Shown here: positions 45,945 to 50,124 of the stretch, piece by piece
How positions within the stretch are numbered: position 1 is the first letter of the stretch
How the letters are laid out: every line of letters begins with the position of its first letter
NCBI GenBank assembly: GCA_963730855.1
Contig: CAVSTK010000010.1
Span: forward strand, 53,011-117,010
Direction: 5' to 3'
Source of the DNA: an uncultured Actinomycetes bacterium
GTDB taxonomy: Bacteria; Actinomycetota; Actinomycetes; Mycobacteriales; Jatrophihabitantaceae
DNA length: 64,000 nucleotides
The notes under the pieces: model-generated
Seen by the model: the letters and a program-made list of their open reading frames with translations, nothing else
Told to the model about the DNA's origin: nothing
Databases searched by the model: none
Program-made: the position numbers and the translations under genes

Positions 45945-46469
45945 ATGCCTGGTACCCGGTCCGTCCGACTGCCGACACCCACGGTGCCGGCAGTTCGGGC
46001 CGGGACCATGTACCGGCTCAACAAACTGCTGGCTCCCAACCCCGTCTATCGTCGGCTGGCTCAGTATCTGGAGCGGCATCCGGTTGCGTACCGGTTGTTC
46101 ACCCGGACCGAAGAGAAGGTCAAGAACTCGATCTTCGGTTGCCAGATGTGCGGCGAGTGCGCGCTGCCGGGCACCGGCTACGCGTGTCCAATGAGCTGCC
46201 CCAAGCAGCTTCGGAACGGACCGTGCGGCGGGGTGGGGACGGGCGGTGAATGCGAGGTCTACCCAGCCATGAAGTGTGTCTGGGTCACCGCGTTCGAACG
46301 GGCCGACGCCGAAGGGCATCGGGCCGATCTGCGGCTGCTACAACGCCCGGTCGATCACCGTGAGAGCGGTAAGAGCTCCTGGGTGAACTACTGGCAGGGG
46401 CGCGACGACGGCCTGTGGACCAGCACTAACGGCCTCGGCACGCCGGTGGAGATTGCGCGTCCGAATTGA
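45945..46469 (+). CDS. MTHFR C-terminal-domain (MetV-like) Cys-rich protein
   Basis: FGCQMCGECALPGTGYACPMSCPKQLRNGPCGGVGTGGECEVYPAMKCVW. Starts 4 nt after the metK stop. The true start may be the internal M at residue 22. Confidence 0.78.
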   Translation: MPGTRSVRLPTPTVPAVRAGTMYRLNKLLAPNPVYRRLAQYLERHPVAYRLFTRTEEKVKNSIFGCQMCGECALPGTGYACPMSCPKQLRNGPCGGVGTGGECEVYPAMKCVWVTAFERADAEGHRADLRLLQRPVDHRESGKSSWVNYWQGRDDGLWTSTNGLGTPVEIARPN

Positions 46470-47494
46470 CCACCGCCACCATTTCCGCGGCCGGCGGTCC
46501 AGCGGCTCCGGTCAGCGGACTGCAACGCGTGCTCGAATCCGGTCGCTTCGCGGTGACGGCCGAACTCGGCCCACCGCGTAGCGCCGGGGTCGATGCACTG
46601 CACGGCAAGGTCGATCTGCTCAAGGGTTGGGTCGATGCGGTAAACCTGACCGACAACCAAGGCGCGTTCGTCCGGATGAGTTCGCTCGCCGGCAGCGCGA
46701 TCGTGATGGCGGCCGGGATAGAGCCGGTTATGCAGATAACCGCTCGTGATCGCAATCGGATCGCTCTGCAGGCTGATCTTTTAGGGGCTTCGGCGCTCGG
46801 CATTCGTAACGTCTTGCTGCTCAGTGGTGATCACCCCCGCTTCGGTGACCACCCCCAGGCCAAGCCGGTCTTCGACATCGACAGCGTCCAGATGGTCTGG
46901 CTGGCGCGAACGATGCGCGACGAGGGCCGGCTGCTTTCGGGCCGCCGCCTCGAGCCGGCGCCGACGCTGTTCCTGGGTTCGGTCGAGAATCCGTTCGCTC
47001 CGCCCGTCCAATACCGGGCCGAGCGGCTGGGTAAGAAGGTCGCCGCCGGCGCACAGTTCGTGCAGACCCAGTACGTGTTCGACGTCGAGGCGTTCGCCCG
47101 CTGGATGTCGGACGTGCGCAATCTCGGTCTGCATGAGCGGTGCAAGGTCATCGCCGGCGTCGGACCGGTTCGCTCACCGCGCGCGCTAGAGCACATGAGC
47201 ACGAGCGTGCCCGGCCTGGTGATCCCGAAAGAAGTGGGCGCGCGGCTGCTGGCGGTCGATCCGGCCGAGTTCGCAAATGAGGGCGTGCGACTGTGCGCCG
47301 AGACGATCGAGCGGGTAAGAGAGATCAAGGGGGTGGCCGGCGTGCACGTCATGGCCTTCGGCAACGAAACCGCCGTACCCGAGATCCTCCGACAGGCTGG
47401 CATCGACCGGCGGCCCGAGCCCGACGCCGACCCACTGCCCGGTCCGAGCCATTTCGACGAGTCTGATAGGGGAGTGACCGAACATGCTGGTTGA
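46466..47494 (+). CDS. metF: Methylenetetrahydrofolate reductase (MetF, MetVF-type)
   Basis: TTG start overlapping the upstream TGA. FAVTAELGPPR...VDAVNLTDNQGAFVRMSS...MQITARDRNRIALQADLLGASALGIRNVLLLSGDH...GAQFVQTQYVFD. Confidence 0.88.
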   Translation: MTTATISAAGGPAAPVSGLQRVLESGRFAVTAELGPPRSAGVDALHGKVDLLKGWVDAVNLTDNQGAFVRMSSLAGSAIVMAAGIEPVMQITARDRNRIALQADLLGASALGIRNVLLLSGDHPRFGDHPQAKPVFDIDSVQMVWLARTMRDEGRLLSGRRLEPAPTLFLGSVENPFAPPVQYRAERLGKKVAAGAQFVQTQYVFDVEAFARWMSDVRNLGLHERCKVIAGVGPVRSPRALEHMSTSVPGLVIPKEVGARLLAVDPAEFANEGVRLCAETIERVREIKGVAGVHVMAFGNETAVPEILRQAGIDRRPEPDADPLPGPSHFDESDRGVTEHAG

Positions 47495-48953
47495 CATCCG
47501 GCCGATCAATCGACTGCACGGCGCCAAGCCGGTCGACGTGGCCGGCACCCTGGACCCCATCGTGTCGGCCCTGAGCGAGAACCCGGACGACCTCGCTCGG
47601 ACGCGCCTGGTCTATGACTGGGTGCAGTACAAGAACAACTTCCGCGAGATCGTCGATGTCCGCACGATTCAGGGCACCCGCGGCGCGGCCGGCGGCCCCG
47701 AGCAGATCGAGCTGGCGGTCGACCTGCGACGCGCGAATGCGGCCGACATCGGCGACGCGGCCCGCCTCGCGCTCGCCCAGAACCGGGACTCCTCGACCAG
47801 TGGCCGGATCTACCTGCAGGACTGGAGCGCCGGCGTCGACAGCATCATCTGGGCCTTCAACGGCTTGTACTGGAAGGCGCTCTCGCTCTGGGAGGAGGCA
47901 TCGGGGCACGCCTACGAACAAGCGCTGCCCGGTGGGCAGAGTGACGCCACCAATGTCGACGGGGTCCGCGAGCTGATCACTCAGCTGTTCGGGGTCTGGG
48001 ACTCACTGGCCGAGCGCAACGCATTGCCCGATGCGCTCTACGTCGTCGAACTGGGCGTCGGAAACGGCAACCAGGCCCGCACCTGGCTCGACGTCTTCAC
48101 CGAACTAGACGCCGAGCACGGTAAGGACTACTACCGCCGGCTGCACTATCTGATGGCCGACTACTCGCCGCACGTCCTCGAGCTCGCGCGGGCCGCGGTC
48201 GCTCCGCACGCCGAGCATGTCAGCGCAGTCGTCCTCGACGCGACCAAACCCCAGACCGCCCTGGGCTTCCTGCGTTACAAGGCCTTCCTCGTCTACATCT
48301 CCAACGTCTACGACAACCTGCCGACGGACGAGATCGCCAGTATCGGCGGCCGGGTCTACCGGGTTGCAGTGCGGGCCTACCTCAGCGGTGATGCCGCCGC
48401 GCAGATCGCAGCGAAGATCTCGGTCACGCCGGAACAGCTGCCCGACCTGGTGTCGAGGTTGCTGCGACTCGGTCCCGAACTGCTCCACGAAGCCGCCCCG
48501 GCCACGTTCGCCGATGTAGCGGCGGCCGTCGACTTCTGGCGCGAGTGCTGGGACGCGGTGCGGCTGGAGGAACGCTACGAACCTCTTGGCGGCCTCGACC
48601 TGTACGAGATCGCGCCGAACGTCTCGGGCGAGGCGCTGCGCCCGCTGCTCGAGTCGGGTGGCGACATCCGGATGCAGGTCAGCAATGGTGCGGTGGCCAG
48701 CTTCGTCGACACGCTGCCGCTGCTGCACCCGTACGGTCAGCTGCTCAATCACGACATCTTCGTCACCGACCTGAGGCGGTACCAGCAGGCCTTCTCGGGT
48801 CCCGGCAAGTATGACGGTTCGGTCGTCAACTGGGTGAACGGGGCGCTGCTGCAGCACATCGGCAATCGTCGCGGCTTCGAACTTCAGATCCAGGCGTTCG
48901 CACACCGCCAGGGAACCAACGTCACCACCTTGACCGCCCGAGTGAGGGATTGA
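47484..48953 (+). CDS. Conserved-looking 489-aa protein of unknown function; weak resemblance to MidA/NDUFAF7-type class I SAM methyltransferases
   Basis: 11-nt overlap with metF. Motif-I-like LYVVELGVGNGNQARTWLDVF, then YLMADYSPHVLELA and VYISNVYDNLPTDE (compare the NE..DALP motif of MidA). No TM segments. Codon usage is typical for the window. Confidence 0.55.
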   Translation: MLVDIRPINRLHGAKPVDVAGTLDPIVSALSENPDDLARTRLVYDWVQYKNNFREIVDVRTIQGTRGAAGGPEQIELAVDLRRANAADIGDAARLALAQNRDSSTSGRIYLQDWSAGVDSIIWAFNGLYWKALSLWEEASGHAYEQALPGGQSDATNVDGVRELITQLFGVWDSLAERNALPDALYVVELGVGNGNQARTWLDVFTELDAEHGKDYYRRLHYLMADYSPHVLELARAAVAPHAEHVSAVVLDATKPQTALGFLRYKAFLVYISNVYDNLPTDEIASIGGRVYRVAVRAYLSGDAAAQIAAKISVTPEQLPDLVSRLLRLGPELLHEAAPATFADVAAAVDFWRECWDAVRLEERYEPLGGLDLYEIAPNVSGEALRPLLESGGDIRMQVSNGAVASFVDTLPLLHPYGQLLNHDIFVTDLRRYQQAFSGPGKYDGSVVNWVNGALLQHIGNRRGFELQIQAFAHRQGTNVTTLTARVRD

Positions 48954-48954
48954 C

Positions 48955-50124
48955 ATGCGCCCGTCGTCGGCTGAAATTTTGAAGGGGCAGCCGCTGCTGC
49001 CCACCACCGTCGTTGGCTCCTATTCGGTGCCCGACTGGCTCGAGCGGCTCAAGACCGACTATTACCAGCACCGCATCAGCGCCCAGCATCTGCGCGATAT
49101 CGAAGAGACCGCGATAAAGGCCGCGATAAAGGATCAGGAACGGGCCGGGATCGACATTGTCTCCGACGGTGAGTTGCGTCGCGACAATGACATCGATTAC
49201 CTGCTCGCGCATATCCCCGGCATCCAGATCGCGTCGTTGTCAAAGAGCTTCTATTACGACTATTACGACGCCGCCGTCACCTCGGTGCTGCCGTTGGACG
49301 ATGGCACTGAAATTGGCTTGGCCGACGACTTCGCATTCACCCGGGCGAATACGGACCGGCCGATCAAATTCTCGTTTACCGGCCCGTTCTCGCTATCGCG
49401 CCGCATCACCAACACCGCCTACGCCGACACCAGCGACCTCACGCGGGCCCTGGCCCACCGGCTGAACGCCGAGGCCCACCGCCTGGTCGCGGCCGGGGTG
49501 AAGATCCTGCAGATCGATGAGCCGTTCCTGGCCGGGTACCCCGAGCAGGTCGCGCTCGCGATCGAGGCCGTCAACATCGTCACCAAGGACGTCGACGCTT
49601 CCTGGGCGCTGCACGTCTGTTACGGCAACCGGTACGCCCGCCCGTCCTGGGAGGGCCATTACGACTTCCTGTTCCCGGCGGTGCTGGACGCGAACGTCGA
49701 CCAGCTGGTGCTGGAGTTCGCGCGCAAGGGTGACGACGACCTGGCGCTGTTCAAGCGCTATGGCTGGGACCGGGCCCTTGGCCTGGGCGTCATCGACGTC
49801 AAGTCCGACCAGGTCGAGACGCCGGCGCTCATCGCGACGCGGATCCGGCGCGCACTCGACTTCATCCCGGCCGAGCAACTGCTCGTCAATCCGGACTGCG
49901 GGCTGCGTCATTTGCGGGCCGACATCGCCCGGGCGAAGCTGCTGGCGATGACGGCCGGCGCGCGGGCCGTACGGTCTGAGCTGGGGGAGCGCAGCCCGGT
50001 GCTCGATGAACCGGAAGTCGCATCTTCTGAACCGGCCGACGCACCCGCGGCGGCCGATTTACCGCAAGGCGAAGCGTCCGAGCCCGAACGCTCCGAAGCC
50101 ACCGAAGCCACCGAAGCCAACTGA
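48955..50124 (+). CDS. Core (single-domain) cobalamin-independent methionine synthase homolog (Meth_synt_2 domain only) with an acidic low-complexity tail
   Basis: PTTVVGSYSVPDWL...DIVSDGELRRDN...ILQIDEPFL...ALHVCYGN (H-x-C)...LVNPDCGL (Cys). 389 aa, roughly half the length of canonical MetE. Confidence 0.82.
   Translation: MRPSSAEILKGQPLLPTTVVGSYSVPDWLERLKTDYYQHRISAQHLRDIEETAIKAAIKDQERAGIDIVSDGELRRDNDIDYLLAHIPGIQIASLSKSFYYDYYDAAVTSVLPLDDGTEIGLADDFAFTRANTDRPIKFSFTGPFSLSRRITNTAYADTSDLTRALAHRLNAEAHRLVAAGVKILQIDEPFLAGYPEQVALAIEAVNIVTKDVDASWALHVCYGNRYARPSWEGHYDFLFPAVLDANVDQLVLEFARKGDDDLALFKRYGWDRALGLGVIDVKSDQVETPALIATRIRRALDFIPAEQLLVNPDCGLRHLRADIARAKLLAMTAGARAVRSELGERSPVLDEPEVASSEPADAPAAADLPQGEASEPERSEATEATEAN

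What the first reader, a model, noticed from the sequence alone, without database searches (positions are those of the whole stretch)
45945..50124. Translationally coupled metV-like / metF / 489-aa unknown / core-MetE module: candidate non-canonical methionine synthase system
Seen in the sequence:
- Four ORFs are packed with coupling-type junctions.
- The ATG at 45945 lies 4 nt after the metK TAA.
- A TTG start overlaps the upstream TGA at 46466-46469.
- There is an 11-nt overlap at 47484-47494.
- The ATG at 48955 lies 2 nt after a TGA.
- The MetE homolog is only the catalytic Meth_synt_2 half (389 aa). It keeps the Zn-ligand motifs HVCYGN and NPDCGL but lacks the N-terminal domain of full-length MetE.

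Established knowledge:
- Single-domain core MetE enzymes studied so far (the MesA-D families and the Dehalococcoides core methionine synthase) do not use methyl-THF in the canonical way. They rely on partner proteins: corrinoid proteins, or DUF1852/MesX plus O2.
- MetV/MetF pairs are best known from acetogens.

Inference: here the partner slot is filled by an uncharacterised 489-aa protein sitting between an MTHFR and the core MetE. It may relay the methyl group or substitute for the missing domain.
Basis: partly seen in the sequence, partly recalled or inferred. Interest (0 to 1): 0.75.

Follow-up and report, generated by a model that had tools for sequence, protein, structure and literature searches.

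The report
Core methionine synthase with unknown partner
A half-size methionine synthase that has lost the usual folate-binding residues is always encoded one base after an uncharacterised methyltransferase-fold protein, which in other phyla is fused to the enzyme that makes methyl-folate; together they look like a previously undescribed two-protein way of making methionine, though no experiment has tested this.

Summary
MetK, a MetV-like protein, MetF, a 489-aa protein (X) and a 389-aa core MetE sit in one tightly coupled gene string.

X has no curated family. Its model matches MidA/COG1565 class I methyltransferases, and in its own clade the SAM-type motifs are invariant.

- **Linkage:** X sits immediately upstream of the core MetE in 80 of 80 related species loci, with a median gap of 1 nt. 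The same pair occurs in a Dehalococcoidia MAG.
- **Context:** The surrounding genes make up a formate-to-SAM methyl cycle: either of two unrelated MTHFR types, plus MetK, SahH, an adenosine-kinase-like PfkB, FTHFS, PurU and an HMT–MTHFR fusion.
- **Fusions:** In other phyla an X-like domain is fused to MTHFR, sometimes with MetV. One fusion is coupled to a MetH/BHMT-type homocysteine module.
- **Core MetE:** It keeps the zinc and homocysteine residues but lacks MetE's folate determinants (Trp539, Arg493, Arg496, Glu583).

Best reading (about 0.45): X is the obligatory partner that supplies or presents the methyl donor, probably MTHFR-made 5-methyl-THF, to the core MetE. Rivals are a SAM-sensing regulator and an ordinary SAM-dependent methyltransferase. 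I found no description of it in the searchable literature. It is a new variant of core methionine synthase systems.

The parts
40185..41537 (+). PucR-type transcriptional regulator (GGDEF_2 + HTH_30), candidate regulator of the module
   Evidence: Pfam PF13556 at 76 bits and PF17853 at 60 bits. The same family lies next to the module in 12 related loci and in the Dehalococcoidia locus L093.
41540..43360 (+). Homocysteine S-methyltransferase / MTHFR fusion (YitJ-like). The listed ORF starts at 41048, but the likely start is the ATG near 41540, just after the regulator's stop.
   Evidence: PF02574 at 230.8 bits plus PF02219. NCBIfam PRK08645 at 515.5 bits, above its cut-off of 453. The start position is inferred from the translation.
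43654..44643 (+). PurU, formyltetrahydrofolate deformylase
   Evidence: TIGR00655 at 357 bits, above its cut-off of 286.
44739..45941 (+). MetK, S-adenosylmethionine synthetase
   Evidence: TIGR01034 at 581.9 bits.
45945..46469 (+). MetV-like Cys-rich small subunit of MetVF-type MTHFR
   Evidence: PF12225 at 90.5 bits. It starts 3 nt after the metK stop.
46466..47494 (+). MetF, MTHFR catalytic subunit (TTG start overlapping the MetV stop)
   Evidence: PF02219 at 138.2 bits. Junction shown. The same 4-nt overlap occurs in L081-L084.
47484..48953 (+). X: 489-aa MidA/COG1565-like class I methyltransferase-fold protein, the conserved partner of the core MetE
   Evidence: - GC3 is 0.87.
- PF02636 scores 20.9 bits, below its cut-off, and there is no NCBIfam hit.
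- The AF2 model has pLDDT 80.5.
- Foldseek's best hits are 4f3n, 4g67, 5zu0 and 1zkd.
- Invariant motifs in its own clade: ELGVGNG, D226, SNVYDNLP and GPGKYDGS.
- 80 of 80 loci carry a core MetE directly downstream.
48955..50124 (+). Core MetE: single Zn/homocysteine barrel (Meth_synt_2) with an acidic low-complexity C-terminal tail from about residue 345
   Evidence: - PF01717 at 150.8 bits.
- The best NCBIfam hit is PRK04326 at 289.8 bits, below its cut-off of 406.
- The best PDB hit is 3RPD at 150.8 bits.
- The Zn and Hcy motifs are kept; the folate determinants of T. maritima MetE are not.
50170..51144 (+). PfkB-family kinase, probably adenosine kinase of the methyl cycle (function inferred)
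   Evidence: PF00294 at 142.5 bits. It accompanies the module in 44 of 80 loci and is often followed by SahH.

Best explanation
The X + core-MetE pair is a two-protein, cobalamin-independent methionine synthase embedded in a self-contained methyl-cycle operon.

**Proposed mechanism**
1. MTHFR reduces methylene-THF to 5-methyl-THF. Here MTHFR is MetVF; in relatives it is the flavin-free mycobacterial type.
2. The core MetE binds and activates homocysteine on its zinc.
3. The core MetE has lost the residues with which full-length MetE holds the pterin and glutamate tail. X, bound to it, therefore supplies or presents the methyl donor. X thus stands in for what the second barrel and folate loops do in MetE, what the Meth_synt_1 subunit does in split MetE, or what MesX does for MesD.
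4. MetK, SahH and the PfkB kinase then run the SAM cycle. FTHFS, PurU and FolD-type genes connect the module to the C1-folate and formate pool.

**Shown**
- Gene identities.
- The conserved 1-nt coupling of X and core MetE.
- The MTHFR-X fusions.
- Loss of the folate determinants and retention of the Zn and Hcy residues.

**Inferred**
- That the two proteins form a complex.
- That the donor is 5-methyl-THF.
- That X takes part in the transfer.
For: 1. **Invariant pairing.** An X homologue is followed by a core MetE in 80 of 80 species loci. The median gap is 1 nt, and it is 20 nt or less in 69 of 77 loci. The pair recurs when starting from core-MetE homologues and in a Dehalococcoidia MAG. The rest of the operon is shuffled around this fixed pair.
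2. **Link to methyl-THF.** MetF lies directly upstream of X in 36 of 73 loci. In 13 others the non-homologous MTHFR_2 (PF19345) lies upstream. An X-like domain is fused C-terminally to MTHFR or to MTHFR-MetV in Poribacteria, Latescibacterota and others.
3. **X also travels with another Zn/Hcy module.** The fusion P0305 is start/stop-coupled to a PF02574 homocysteine methyltransferase. PF02574 genes lie directly upstream of X in L016 and L047.
4. **The core MetE looks catalytically competent for homocysteine but not for folate.** GSYS, DGE, IDEP, HVC, LE and NPDCG align with the Zn and Hcy residues. T. maritima Trp539 is Arg here, Arg493 is Ala and Arg496 is Thr. Glu583 falls in a segment that is absent, and DMV is NDI (residue roles from PMC539065).
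5. **No alternative donor system in view.** No corrinoid-protein or DUF1852 gene was seen near the module.
6. **Conservation pattern across distant X homologues.** The motif IV region (N-x-x-D-N-L-P) and two flexible loops are conserved in nearly all. The glycine-rich motif I degenerates in the fusions. This suggests the conserved job is not simply SAM binding.
Against: - No class I methyltransferase-fold protein that I know of uses methyl-THF as donor.
- In its own clade X keeps a canonical SAM-type motif I, the acidic residue at the end of strand 2, and motif III. These point to a SAM or SAH ligand.
- A SAM-derived methyl group would make methionine synthesis futile. Price et al. make this argument in PMC7857596.
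- No X-core-MetE fusion appeared among the 150 best representatives.
- Some fusion loci show no Zn/Hcy module nearby (L085, L086).
- I could not test whether genomes with the pair lack MetH and MetE.
- No interaction or complex model was computed.
Confidence: 0.45

Rival explanations
1. X is a SAM/SAH-sensing regulatory subunit, or a regulatory domain in the fusions. It feeds back on MTHFR and/or the methionine synthase step, as the C-terminal SAM-binding regulatory domain does in eukaryotic MTHFR. The core MetE would then obtain its methyl group some other way.
For: - X has a MidA-like class I fold with SAM-type motifs that are invariant in its own clade.
- The fusions have the eukaryote-like order: MTHFR catalytic domain, then the X-like domain.
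- No riboswitch was found at the module in 13 sources, so some non-RNA control is needed.
- A 2026 review states that SAM regulation of MTHFR is unknown in prokaryotes (PMC13001107), so the niche is open.
Against: - In Actinomycetota X is fixed to the core MetE, not to MTHFR. About half of the loci have no MetF directly upstream of X.
- The part of the fold that varies in the fusions is the glycine-rich nucleotide loop, while the motif IV 'substrate' side stays nearly invariant. A pure SAM sensor should show the opposite.
- This reading leaves the core MetE without a donor, although it lacks the folate determinants.
Confidence: 0.2
2. X is an ordinary SAM-dependent methyltransferase acting on a small molecule or a protein. 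It could, for example, modify the core MetE or MTHFR in the way MidA/NDUFAF7 methylates an arginine. The surrounding genes would then be a SAM-regeneration cassette serving it.
For: - Fold and motifs.
- The operon contains every methyl-cycle step except a SAM consumer, and X could fill that slot.
- Some X homologues pass the Pfam Methyltransf_28 threshold. P0251 scores 29.1 bits against 23.3, and others carry precomputed PF02636.
Against: - Nothing explains why a generic SAM consumer should always sit 1 nt upstream of the core MetE rather than next to MetK or SahH.
- Nothing explains why it should be fused to MTHFR, which lies two steps away from SAM.
- No substrate-synthesis or export genes are conserved nearby.
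- Motif I is degenerate in the fusions.
Confidence: 0.2
3. The short MetE homologue is not a methionine synthase. It methylates another thiol, or it runs an S-methylmethionine-type cycle in which X acts as the SAM-dependent methyl-sulfonium maker.
For: - It is below the cut-off of every curated methionine synthase model.
- Several other MetE-like paralogues cluster in these loci, including window 58781-59866.
- PF02574 enzymes that use sulfonium donors are co-located.
Against: - The residues that bind homocysteine's carboxylate and amino groups and the zinc are all aligned and conserved (roles from PMC7857596 and PMC539065).
- The context is MTHFR, MetK and SahH, which are methionine-cycle genes.
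- An S-methylmethionine cycle gives no reason for MTHFR fusions.
Confidence: 0.08

Closest known systems
MesD/MesX (core methionine synthase plus DUF1852 partner; Price et al. 2021, PMC7857596)
   Same: - A single-barrel MetE homologue lacking the folate machinery.
- Encoded next to an obligatory-looking partner of a different fold.
- Found in aerobic bacteria, with no corrinoid protein involved.
- The best solved-structure match of the window protein is a MesD (3RPD).
   Different: - Only 150.8 bits to 3RPD, against the roughly 390-bit criterion used for MesD.
- The partner is a MidA-like Rossmann protein, not DUF1852.
- The module is physically tied to MTHFR, whereas MesD/MesX was shown not to need methyl-THF.
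Split MetE of archaea (Pyrococcus PF1268/PF1269; PMC7857596)
   Same: - Catalytic Meth_synt_2 barrel and a second subunit encoded side by side.
- A pterin-type donor is predicted.
- The best curated model for the window protein is PRK04326, which I believe, from memory, represents this archaeal group.
   Different: - The second subunit here is not a Meth_synt_1 barrel (no Pfam hit).
- The score is below the PRK04326 cut-off (289.8 against 406).
MesA/MesB/MesC core methionine synthases (methylcobalamin or corrinoid-protein dependent; PMC7005905, PMC7857596)
   Same: A single Zn/Hcy barrel without an N-terminal domain.
   Different: - Those occur in strict anaerobes and are linked to MtrA or CoFeSP.
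- Here no corrinoid-protein gene was seen in the loci examined.
- The hosts are mostly Actinomycetota. That these are mainly aerobes is my own knowledge, not tested here.
MidA / NDUFAF7 / COG1565 (Methyltransf_28)
   Same: - Best structural matches of X (4f3n, 4g67, 5zu0, 1zkd; E-values 5e-8 to 1e-6).
- Comparable motif I.
- An N-x-x-D-x-L-P motif IV. The MidA motif is recalled from memory.
   Different: - About 11% identity and TM-scores of about 0.4-0.55.
- The window protein is below the Pfam threshold.
- Extra N-terminal region and family-specific invariant loops.
- MidA is a protein arginine methyltransferase with no link to folate or methionine synthesis.
Eukaryotic MTHFR (catalytic domain plus C-terminal SAM-binding regulatory domain; PMC13001107)
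   Same: The MTHFR-X fusions have the same order: a catalytic barrel followed by a domain with a nucleotide-binding fold.
   Different: - The eukaryotic regulatory domain is reported to have a fold of its own (from memory), not a class I methyltransferase fold.
- In the window X is a separate protein tied to the core MetE.
YitJ-type HMT-MTHFR fusion and MetVF-type MTHFR of acetogens
   Same: - Both are present in the window (41540-43360 and 45945-47494).
- Both recur in related loci.
- In L091 the same domains are arranged as HMT followed by MTHFR-MetV-X.
   Different: - Neither is known to work with a MidA-like protein.
- MetVF has been studied in anaerobic acetogens with ferredoxin-type donors, not in Actinomycetota.

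Membership tests
Meth_synt_2 (PF01717), catalytic barrel of cobalamin-independent methionine synthases | Pfam model match above the gathering score | tested here: met
   150.8 bits against a cut-off of 21, covering profile positions 1-322 of 324.
Meth_synt_2 (PF01717), catalytic barrel of cobalamin-independent methionine synthases | Zn ligands (His, Cys, Glu, Cys) and homocysteine-binding Ser, Glu and Asp | tested here: met
   HVC, LE and NPDCG, plus GSYS, DGE and IDEP, align with the corresponding residues of 3RPD, S. mutans MetE and T. maritima MetE. Residue roles come from PMC7857596 and PMC539065.
Full-length MetE (TIGR01371 / EC 2.1.1.14) | Two barrels (Meth_synt_1 + Meth_synt_2) in one chain of about 750 aa | tested here: not met
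   389 aa. TIGR01371 scores 117 bits against a cut-off of 929.95, matching model positions 424-753 only.
Full-length MetE (TIGR01371 / EC 2.1.1.14) | Folate determinants of the C-terminal barrel (T. maritima Trp539, Glu583, Arg493, Arg496, DMV) | tested here: not met
   The aligned residues are Arg, an absent segment, Ala, Thr and NDI (mapped with PMC539065).
MesD/MesX | Close similarity to characterised MesD (about 390 bits or 55% identity in PMC7857596) | tested here: not met
   150.8 bits to the MesD structure 3RPD. NCBIfam PRK09121 scores 185 bits against a cut-off of 392. Equating that model with MesD is my inference.
MesD/MesX | Adjacent DUF1852 (PF08908) partner | tested here: not met
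   The adjacent partner X has no PF08908 hit, and none of the scanned neighbours has one.
MesA / MesB / MesC | Similarity above the family thresholds to MTH775, DET0516 or MA_0053 | not testable with these tools
Indirectly, every curated methionine synthase model is below its cut-off.
MesA / MesB / MesC | Association with corrinoid proteins (MtrA, CoFeSP) in anaerobes | tested here: not met
   No corrinoid-protein family appeared among the recurrent neighbour families of 84 loci or among the window neighbours.
Split MetE | Catalytic subunit scoring at least 200 bits against P. furiosus PF1269 | not testable with these tools
   The reference sequence was not held. PRK04326 is the best model at 289.8 bits, below its cut-off of 406.
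Split MetE | Adjacent Meth_synt_1-type second subunit | tested here: not met
   X has no Meth_synt_1 hit at E-value 0.01 or better. Its model is a Rossmann-type methyltransferase fold.
Methyltransf_28 / MidA / COG1565 (for X) | Pfam PF02636 above the gathering score | tested here: inconclusive
   The window protein scores 20.9 bits against 23.3. The homologue P0251 scores 29.1 bits, and many homologues carry precomputed PF02636.
Methyltransf_28 / MidA / COG1565 (for X) | MidA-like three-dimensional architecture | tested here: met
   The top six Foldseek PDB hits are all COG1565/MidA structures, with E-values of 5e-8 to 1e-6 and target TM-scores of 0.45-0.55. The model has pLDDT 80.5.
Methyltransf_28 / MidA / COG1565 (for X) | SAM binding and protein arginine methyltransferase activity | not testable with these tools
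   Only motifs can be read. ELGVGNG, D226, LDAT and NVYDNLP are conserved. Motif I is degenerate in the fusion subfamily.
MetVF-type MTHFR | PF12225 small subunit encoded next to a PF02219 catalytic subunit | tested here: met
   45945-46469 and 46466-47494, with a 4-nt overlap. The same arrangement occurs in L081-L084.

The most novel reading that the evidence does not exclude
X is the first class I methyltransferase-fold protein that handles 5-methyl-THF rather than SAM. It would act as a modular, cobalamin-free methyl-donor module that docks onto either kind of zinc/homocysteine barrel, MetE-type or MetH/BHMT-type, and is often fused to MTHFR for channelling. That would be a third general solution to methionine synthesis beside MetH and MetE.
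Probability: 0.25. Interest if true: 0.9.

Novelty: new variant of a known kind. Interest (0 to 1): 0.72.

Why it matters
- **Open question.** How core methionine synthases obtain methyl groups without cobalamin is unresolved, and even the substrate of MesX is still unknown.
- **A tractable candidate.** This module gives a widespread, genetically compact case. X relatives were confirmed in 426 stretches from 185,579 species genomes and in thousands of metagenome proteins. Its comparative signals are strong: an invariant 1-nt coupling, two interchangeable MTHFR types, and MTHFR fusions.
- **Annotation and reconstruction.** If X + core MetE is a methionine synthase, the current labels would need correcting. 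The core MetE is called '5-methyltetrahydropteroyltriglutamate--homocysteine methyltransferase', and X is called 'SAM-dependent methyltransferase' or 'hypothetical'. Predictions of methionine and B12 auxotrophy for many soil Actinomycetota and Chloroflexota would change as well.
- **If X is a SAM sensor.** It would then be the first prokaryotic counterpart of SAM-regulated MTHFR.

Tried and rejected
- **Sequence searches of X against solved structures.** Two profiles (A1, A2) found nothing usable. The only hit was a weak PsoF methyltransferase alignment at E-value 0.068.
- **NCBIfam.** No model matches X or its Dehalococcoidia homologue.
- **Riboswitches.** I searched for B12 or SAM riboswitches that would date the module as B12-repressed or SAM-repressed. 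None was found in the window or 12 loci at gathering score, and only noise appeared at E-value 1 or better.
- **Promoter and terminator scan.** Nothing exceeded the shuffled expectation.
- **Exact look-up of the window's own X protein.** The closest X in species genomes is 64% identical and comes from Pseudonocardiales MAGs.
- **Supplementary tables of Price et al.** I looked for actinobacterial genera, but they are not held as text.
- **MetE-fusion of Phaeocystis (PMC10861871).** Rejected as a relative: different added domains (PP-binding, Pyr_redox_2).
- **Apparent exceptions L016 and L062.** Both are frameshifted core-MetE genes in long-read MAGs, not absences.
- **B12-binding role for X.** I saw no DxHxxG motif in the alignment, and the predicted fold is a MidA-like methyltransferase, not the fold I would expect of a B12-binding domain.
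- **SAH-to-SAM remethylation by methyl-THF.** Rejected on thermodynamic grounds (my own reasoning).
- **X-core-MetE complex model.** Not attempted. The prediction tool takes single chains of session proteins and returns no contact information.

Full report
**1. Observation**

- metK (44739-45941) ends in TAA. An ATG at 45945 opens a 174-aa ORF.
- The stop of that ORF overlaps the TTG start of a 342-aa ORF (46466).
- The last 11 nt of the 342-aa ORF overlap the ATG (47484) of a 489-aa ORF.
- One base after the TGA of the 489-aa ORF, at 48955, a 389-aa ORF begins.

Pfam and NCBIfam identify these genes:

| Coordinates | Assignment | Score |
|---|---|---|
| 45945-46469 | MetV-like, PF12225 | 90.5 bits |
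| 46466-47494 | MTHFR, PF02219 | 138 bits |
| 47484-48953 | X; sub-threshold PF02636 only | 20.9 bits (cut-off 23.3) |
| 48955-50124 | Meth_synt_2 only, PF01717 | 150.8 bits |

- The last protein matches only the C-terminal half of full-length MetE models (TIGR01371 positions 424-753, 117 bits against a cut-off of 930).
- X has the third-position GC content of a real gene (0.87).
The same-strand string begins with a PucR-type regulator (40185-41537) and a YitJ-like homocysteine S-methyltransferase/MTHFR fusion (PRK08645, 515 bits, above cut-off). It continues with PurU and MetK and ends with a PfkB kinase (50170-51144).

**2. What X is**

- Sequence profiles find no solved relative.
- An AlphaFold model built on 20 homologues is reasonably confident (pLDDT 80.5, pTM 0.80).
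- Its six best PDB matches are all COG1565/MidA proteins (4f3n, 4g67, 5zu0, 5ztz, 1zkd; E-values 5e-8 to 1e-6). A long list of class I SAM methyltransferases follows.
- Alignment columns that are invariant in its clade correspond to the classical motifs: ELGVGNG (motif I), D226 at the end of strand 2, LDAT, and SNVYDNLP (motif IV).
- A weak alignment to the SAH-bound PsoF methyltransferase puts these motifs in register.
- X is therefore a very divergent MidA-like methyltransferase-fold protein, not a fold of unknown kind.
- Two further invariant segments fall in low-confidence, probably mobile loops: LPGGxSD (148-154) and GPGKYDGSVVNWVNG (439-453).

**3. Linkage**

- The X family has at least 2,500 members among scored candidates.
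- It has 697 representatives at 50% clustering.
- 426 stretches in 185,579 species genomes encode a relative. The 80 best are mostly Pseudonocardiales, Geodermatophilaceae, Streptosporangiales and Acidimicrobiia.
- In all 80 fetched loci a core-MetE homologue follows X. The two apparent exceptions are frameshifted genes in long-read MAGs.
- The distance from the X stop to the core-MetE start has a median of 1 nt and is 20 nt or less in 69 of 77 loci.
- Starting instead from core-MetE homologues gives MetV-MetF-X-core MetE-MetK again, with the same 4-nt and 11-nt overlaps as in the window.
- A Dehalococcoidia MAG has X-core MetE with MTHFR, FolD, an HMT-MTHFR fusion and a PucR regulator around it.

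Around the fixed pair the operon is rearranged.
- MetF lies directly upstream in 36 of 73 loci, and MetK directly downstream of the core MetE in 55 of 80.
- Clustering all neighbour ORFs shows SahH in 34 loci, formate-THF ligase in 26, the PfkB kinase in 40, and an FTCD_C cyclodeaminase-type protein in 11.
- In 13 loci that lack MetVF, the non-homologous mycobacterial MTHFR_2 (PF19345) lies upstream.
- Together these genes cover most of the formate to methyl-THF to methionine to SAM to homocysteine cycle.
- Two unrelated MTHFR types in the same neighbourhood argue that MTHFR function, and not a particular protein, is what belongs with X-core MetE.

**4. Fusions**

- The exhaustive representative search found long proteins with an X-like domain at the C-terminus.
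- Pfam and BLAST show MTHFR + MetV + X (P0304, 1194 aa; P0305, 1232 aa) and MTHFR + X (P0386, 891 aa; P0357, 978 aa).
- A search with the X domain of P0305 found at least a dozen further MTHFR-X proteins of about 845-895 aa, on contigs up to 8.4 Mb. Source names include Latescibacterota and Poribacteria.
- Their contexts are informative. P0305 is start/stop-coupled to an upstream PF02574 homocysteine methyltransferase that resembles the MetH and BHMT homocysteine domains.
- P0304 follows a gene resembling methyl-THF:corrinoid methyltransferases and the MetH pterin domain.
- P0386 has neither nearby.
- A 39%-identical stand-alone X lies beside an MTHFR gene.
- X is therefore linked, over large evolutionary distances, both to the enzyme that makes 5-methyl-THF and to zinc/homocysteine barrels of two different families.

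**5. The core MetE**

- It is below the cut-off of every curated methionine synthase model. The best is PRK04326 at 289.8 bits against 406.
- Its best solved relative is the MesD structure 3RPD, at only 150.8 bits.
- I mapped the T. maritima MetE alignment onto the residue roles given by Pejchal and Ludwig (PMC539065). The chain numbering is offset by 32, checked with His618 and Cys620.
- The zinc ligands and the homocysteine-binding Ser, Glu and Asp are conserved.
- The folate determinants of the C-terminal barrel are not:

| T. maritima MetE | Role | Window core MetE |
|---|---|---|
| Trp539 | pterin stacking | Arg |
| Arg493 | glutamate tail | Ala |
| Arg496 | glutamate tail | Thr |
| Glu583 | pterin N3 / 2-NH2 | lies in a segment that is absent |
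| DMV (467-469) | couples Hcy and folate binding | NDI |

- At the Trp539 position, the MesD structure 3RPD, from a family shown not to use methyl-THF, also lacks Trp (Thr).
- The protein therefore looks competent to activate homocysteine but unable to bind methyl-THF the canonical way. This is the property that makes a partner necessary in the characterised core systems (PMC7857596, PMC7005905).
- No corrinoid-protein or DUF1852 gene was seen in the neighbourhoods.

**6. Mechanism**

The most economical reading of sections 3-5 is that X and the core MetE form a two-component methionine synthase fed by the co-encoded MTHFR. X would supply or present the methyl donor. I give this about 0.45.

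Its weak point is chemical.
- I know of no class I methyltransferase-fold protein that uses methyl-THF as donor.
- X keeps SAM-type motifs, and a SAM-derived methyl group cannot yield net methionine.

One observation softens this. Across distant homologues the glycine-rich loop degenerates in the fusions (EIGVAS, EIGAAN). The motif IV segment and the two mobile loops stay conserved in nearly all of them. What is conserved may therefore not be SAM binding as such.

Rivals:
- **SAM/SAH-sensing regulator of MTHFR or the methionine synthase step (0.2).** This would be a prokaryotic analogue of the eukaryotic MTHFR regulatory domain. A 2026 review says prokaryotes lack such regulation (PMC13001107).
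- **Ordinary SAM-dependent methyltransferase, possibly modifying its neighbours, served by a SAM-regeneration cassette (0.2).**
- **Non-methionine or S-methylmethionine-cycle role of the short MetE (0.08).**

The fixed 1-nt coupling to the core MetE and the MTHFR fusions count against the second rival. The donor-less core MetE and the motif conservation pattern count against the first.

**7. Comparison and novelty**

- The system works like MesD/MesX or split MetE: a catalytic barrel plus a separately encoded partner. It is a member of neither, since both the similarity thresholds and the partner family fail (see the membership rows).
- Literature searches for core methionine synthases, MesX/DUF1852, Methyltransf_28/COG1565 and MetVF found no description of this pairing or of MTHFR-X fusions.
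- Price et al. noted that 40 of 147 genomes with a split-MetE-like catalytic subunit had no recognisable second subunit. This module may account for some of them, which is my inference.
- I rate it a new variant of a known kind, with high interest because simple complementation and enzyme assays can test it directly.

**8. Limits**

- I could not name the organism.
- I could not test for MetH or MetE elsewhere in carrier genomes.
- I could not place the core MetE against MesA-C or PF1269 reference sequences.
- I could not model the complex.

Noticed in passing
window 41540-43360 (+), with 40185-41537 (+): A YitJ-like homocysteine S-methyltransferase/MTHFR fusion (PRK08645, above cut-off) directly follows a PucR-type regulator and heads the same gene string. 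The window therefore encodes two MTHFRs and two different zinc/homocysteine methyltransferases within 9 kb. HMT-type genes recur in 22 of 80 related loci.
   Followed up: partly
window 58781-59866 (-): A second, very divergent MetE-like ORF of 361 aa. Its best NCBIfam hit is PRK04326 at 49 bits. Similar paralogues of about 375-410 aa, with HxC and DDCG zinc motifs and resembling PRK06520 or YxjG, sit near the module in 15 related loci and in L093.
   Followed up: partly
L002 6207-6806 and 11 other loci: A 199-aa ORF with only a weak 2OG-Fe(II) oxygenase-like hit (E-value 5e-4) lies between the mycobacterial-type MTHFR_2 gene and X, in loci that lack MetVF. Its function is unknown.
   Followed up: no
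window 49990-50124 (residues ~345-389 of the core MetE): An acidic, Ala/Glu/Pro/Ser-rich low-complexity C-terminal tail. Most homologues align to only about 85-90% of the query, so the tail is lineage-specific.
   Followed up: no
window 51160-51235: A long hairpin-like element lies between the convergent PfkB gene and an alpha/beta-hydrolase gene. It showed up only as weak microRNA-precursor-like Rfam noise and is probably a bidirectional terminator.
   Followed up: no
window 52147-55826 (-); also L081, L083: A branched-chain-amino-acid-type ABC transporter (ABC_tran, two BPD_transp_2 permeases) lies next to the module. A transporter of the same type (Peripla_BP_6, BPD_transp_2 x2, ABC_tran x2) follows MetK in L081 and L083. 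It could be a methionine or amino-acid uptake system. The 52-54 kb segment also has an unusual GC skew (+0.29, then -0.20).
   Followed up: no
window 18000-22000: This segment has markedly higher GC content (0.75 against about 0.67). By eye, its minus-strand ORF translations resemble NAD biosynthesis proteins (nadC, nadB and nadA-like). They are split over several overlapping frames, which could reflect frameshifts or sequencing errors.
   Followed up: no
L085 4580-5551; L091 8066-9004: Next to the MTHFR-MetV-X fusions lie stand-alone modules resembling single MetH domains: a pterin-binding, MeTr-like module in L085 and a homocysteine-binding module in L091. This hints at split, possibly cobalamin-free, MetH-like assemblies in non-actinobacterial phyla.
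   Followed up: partly
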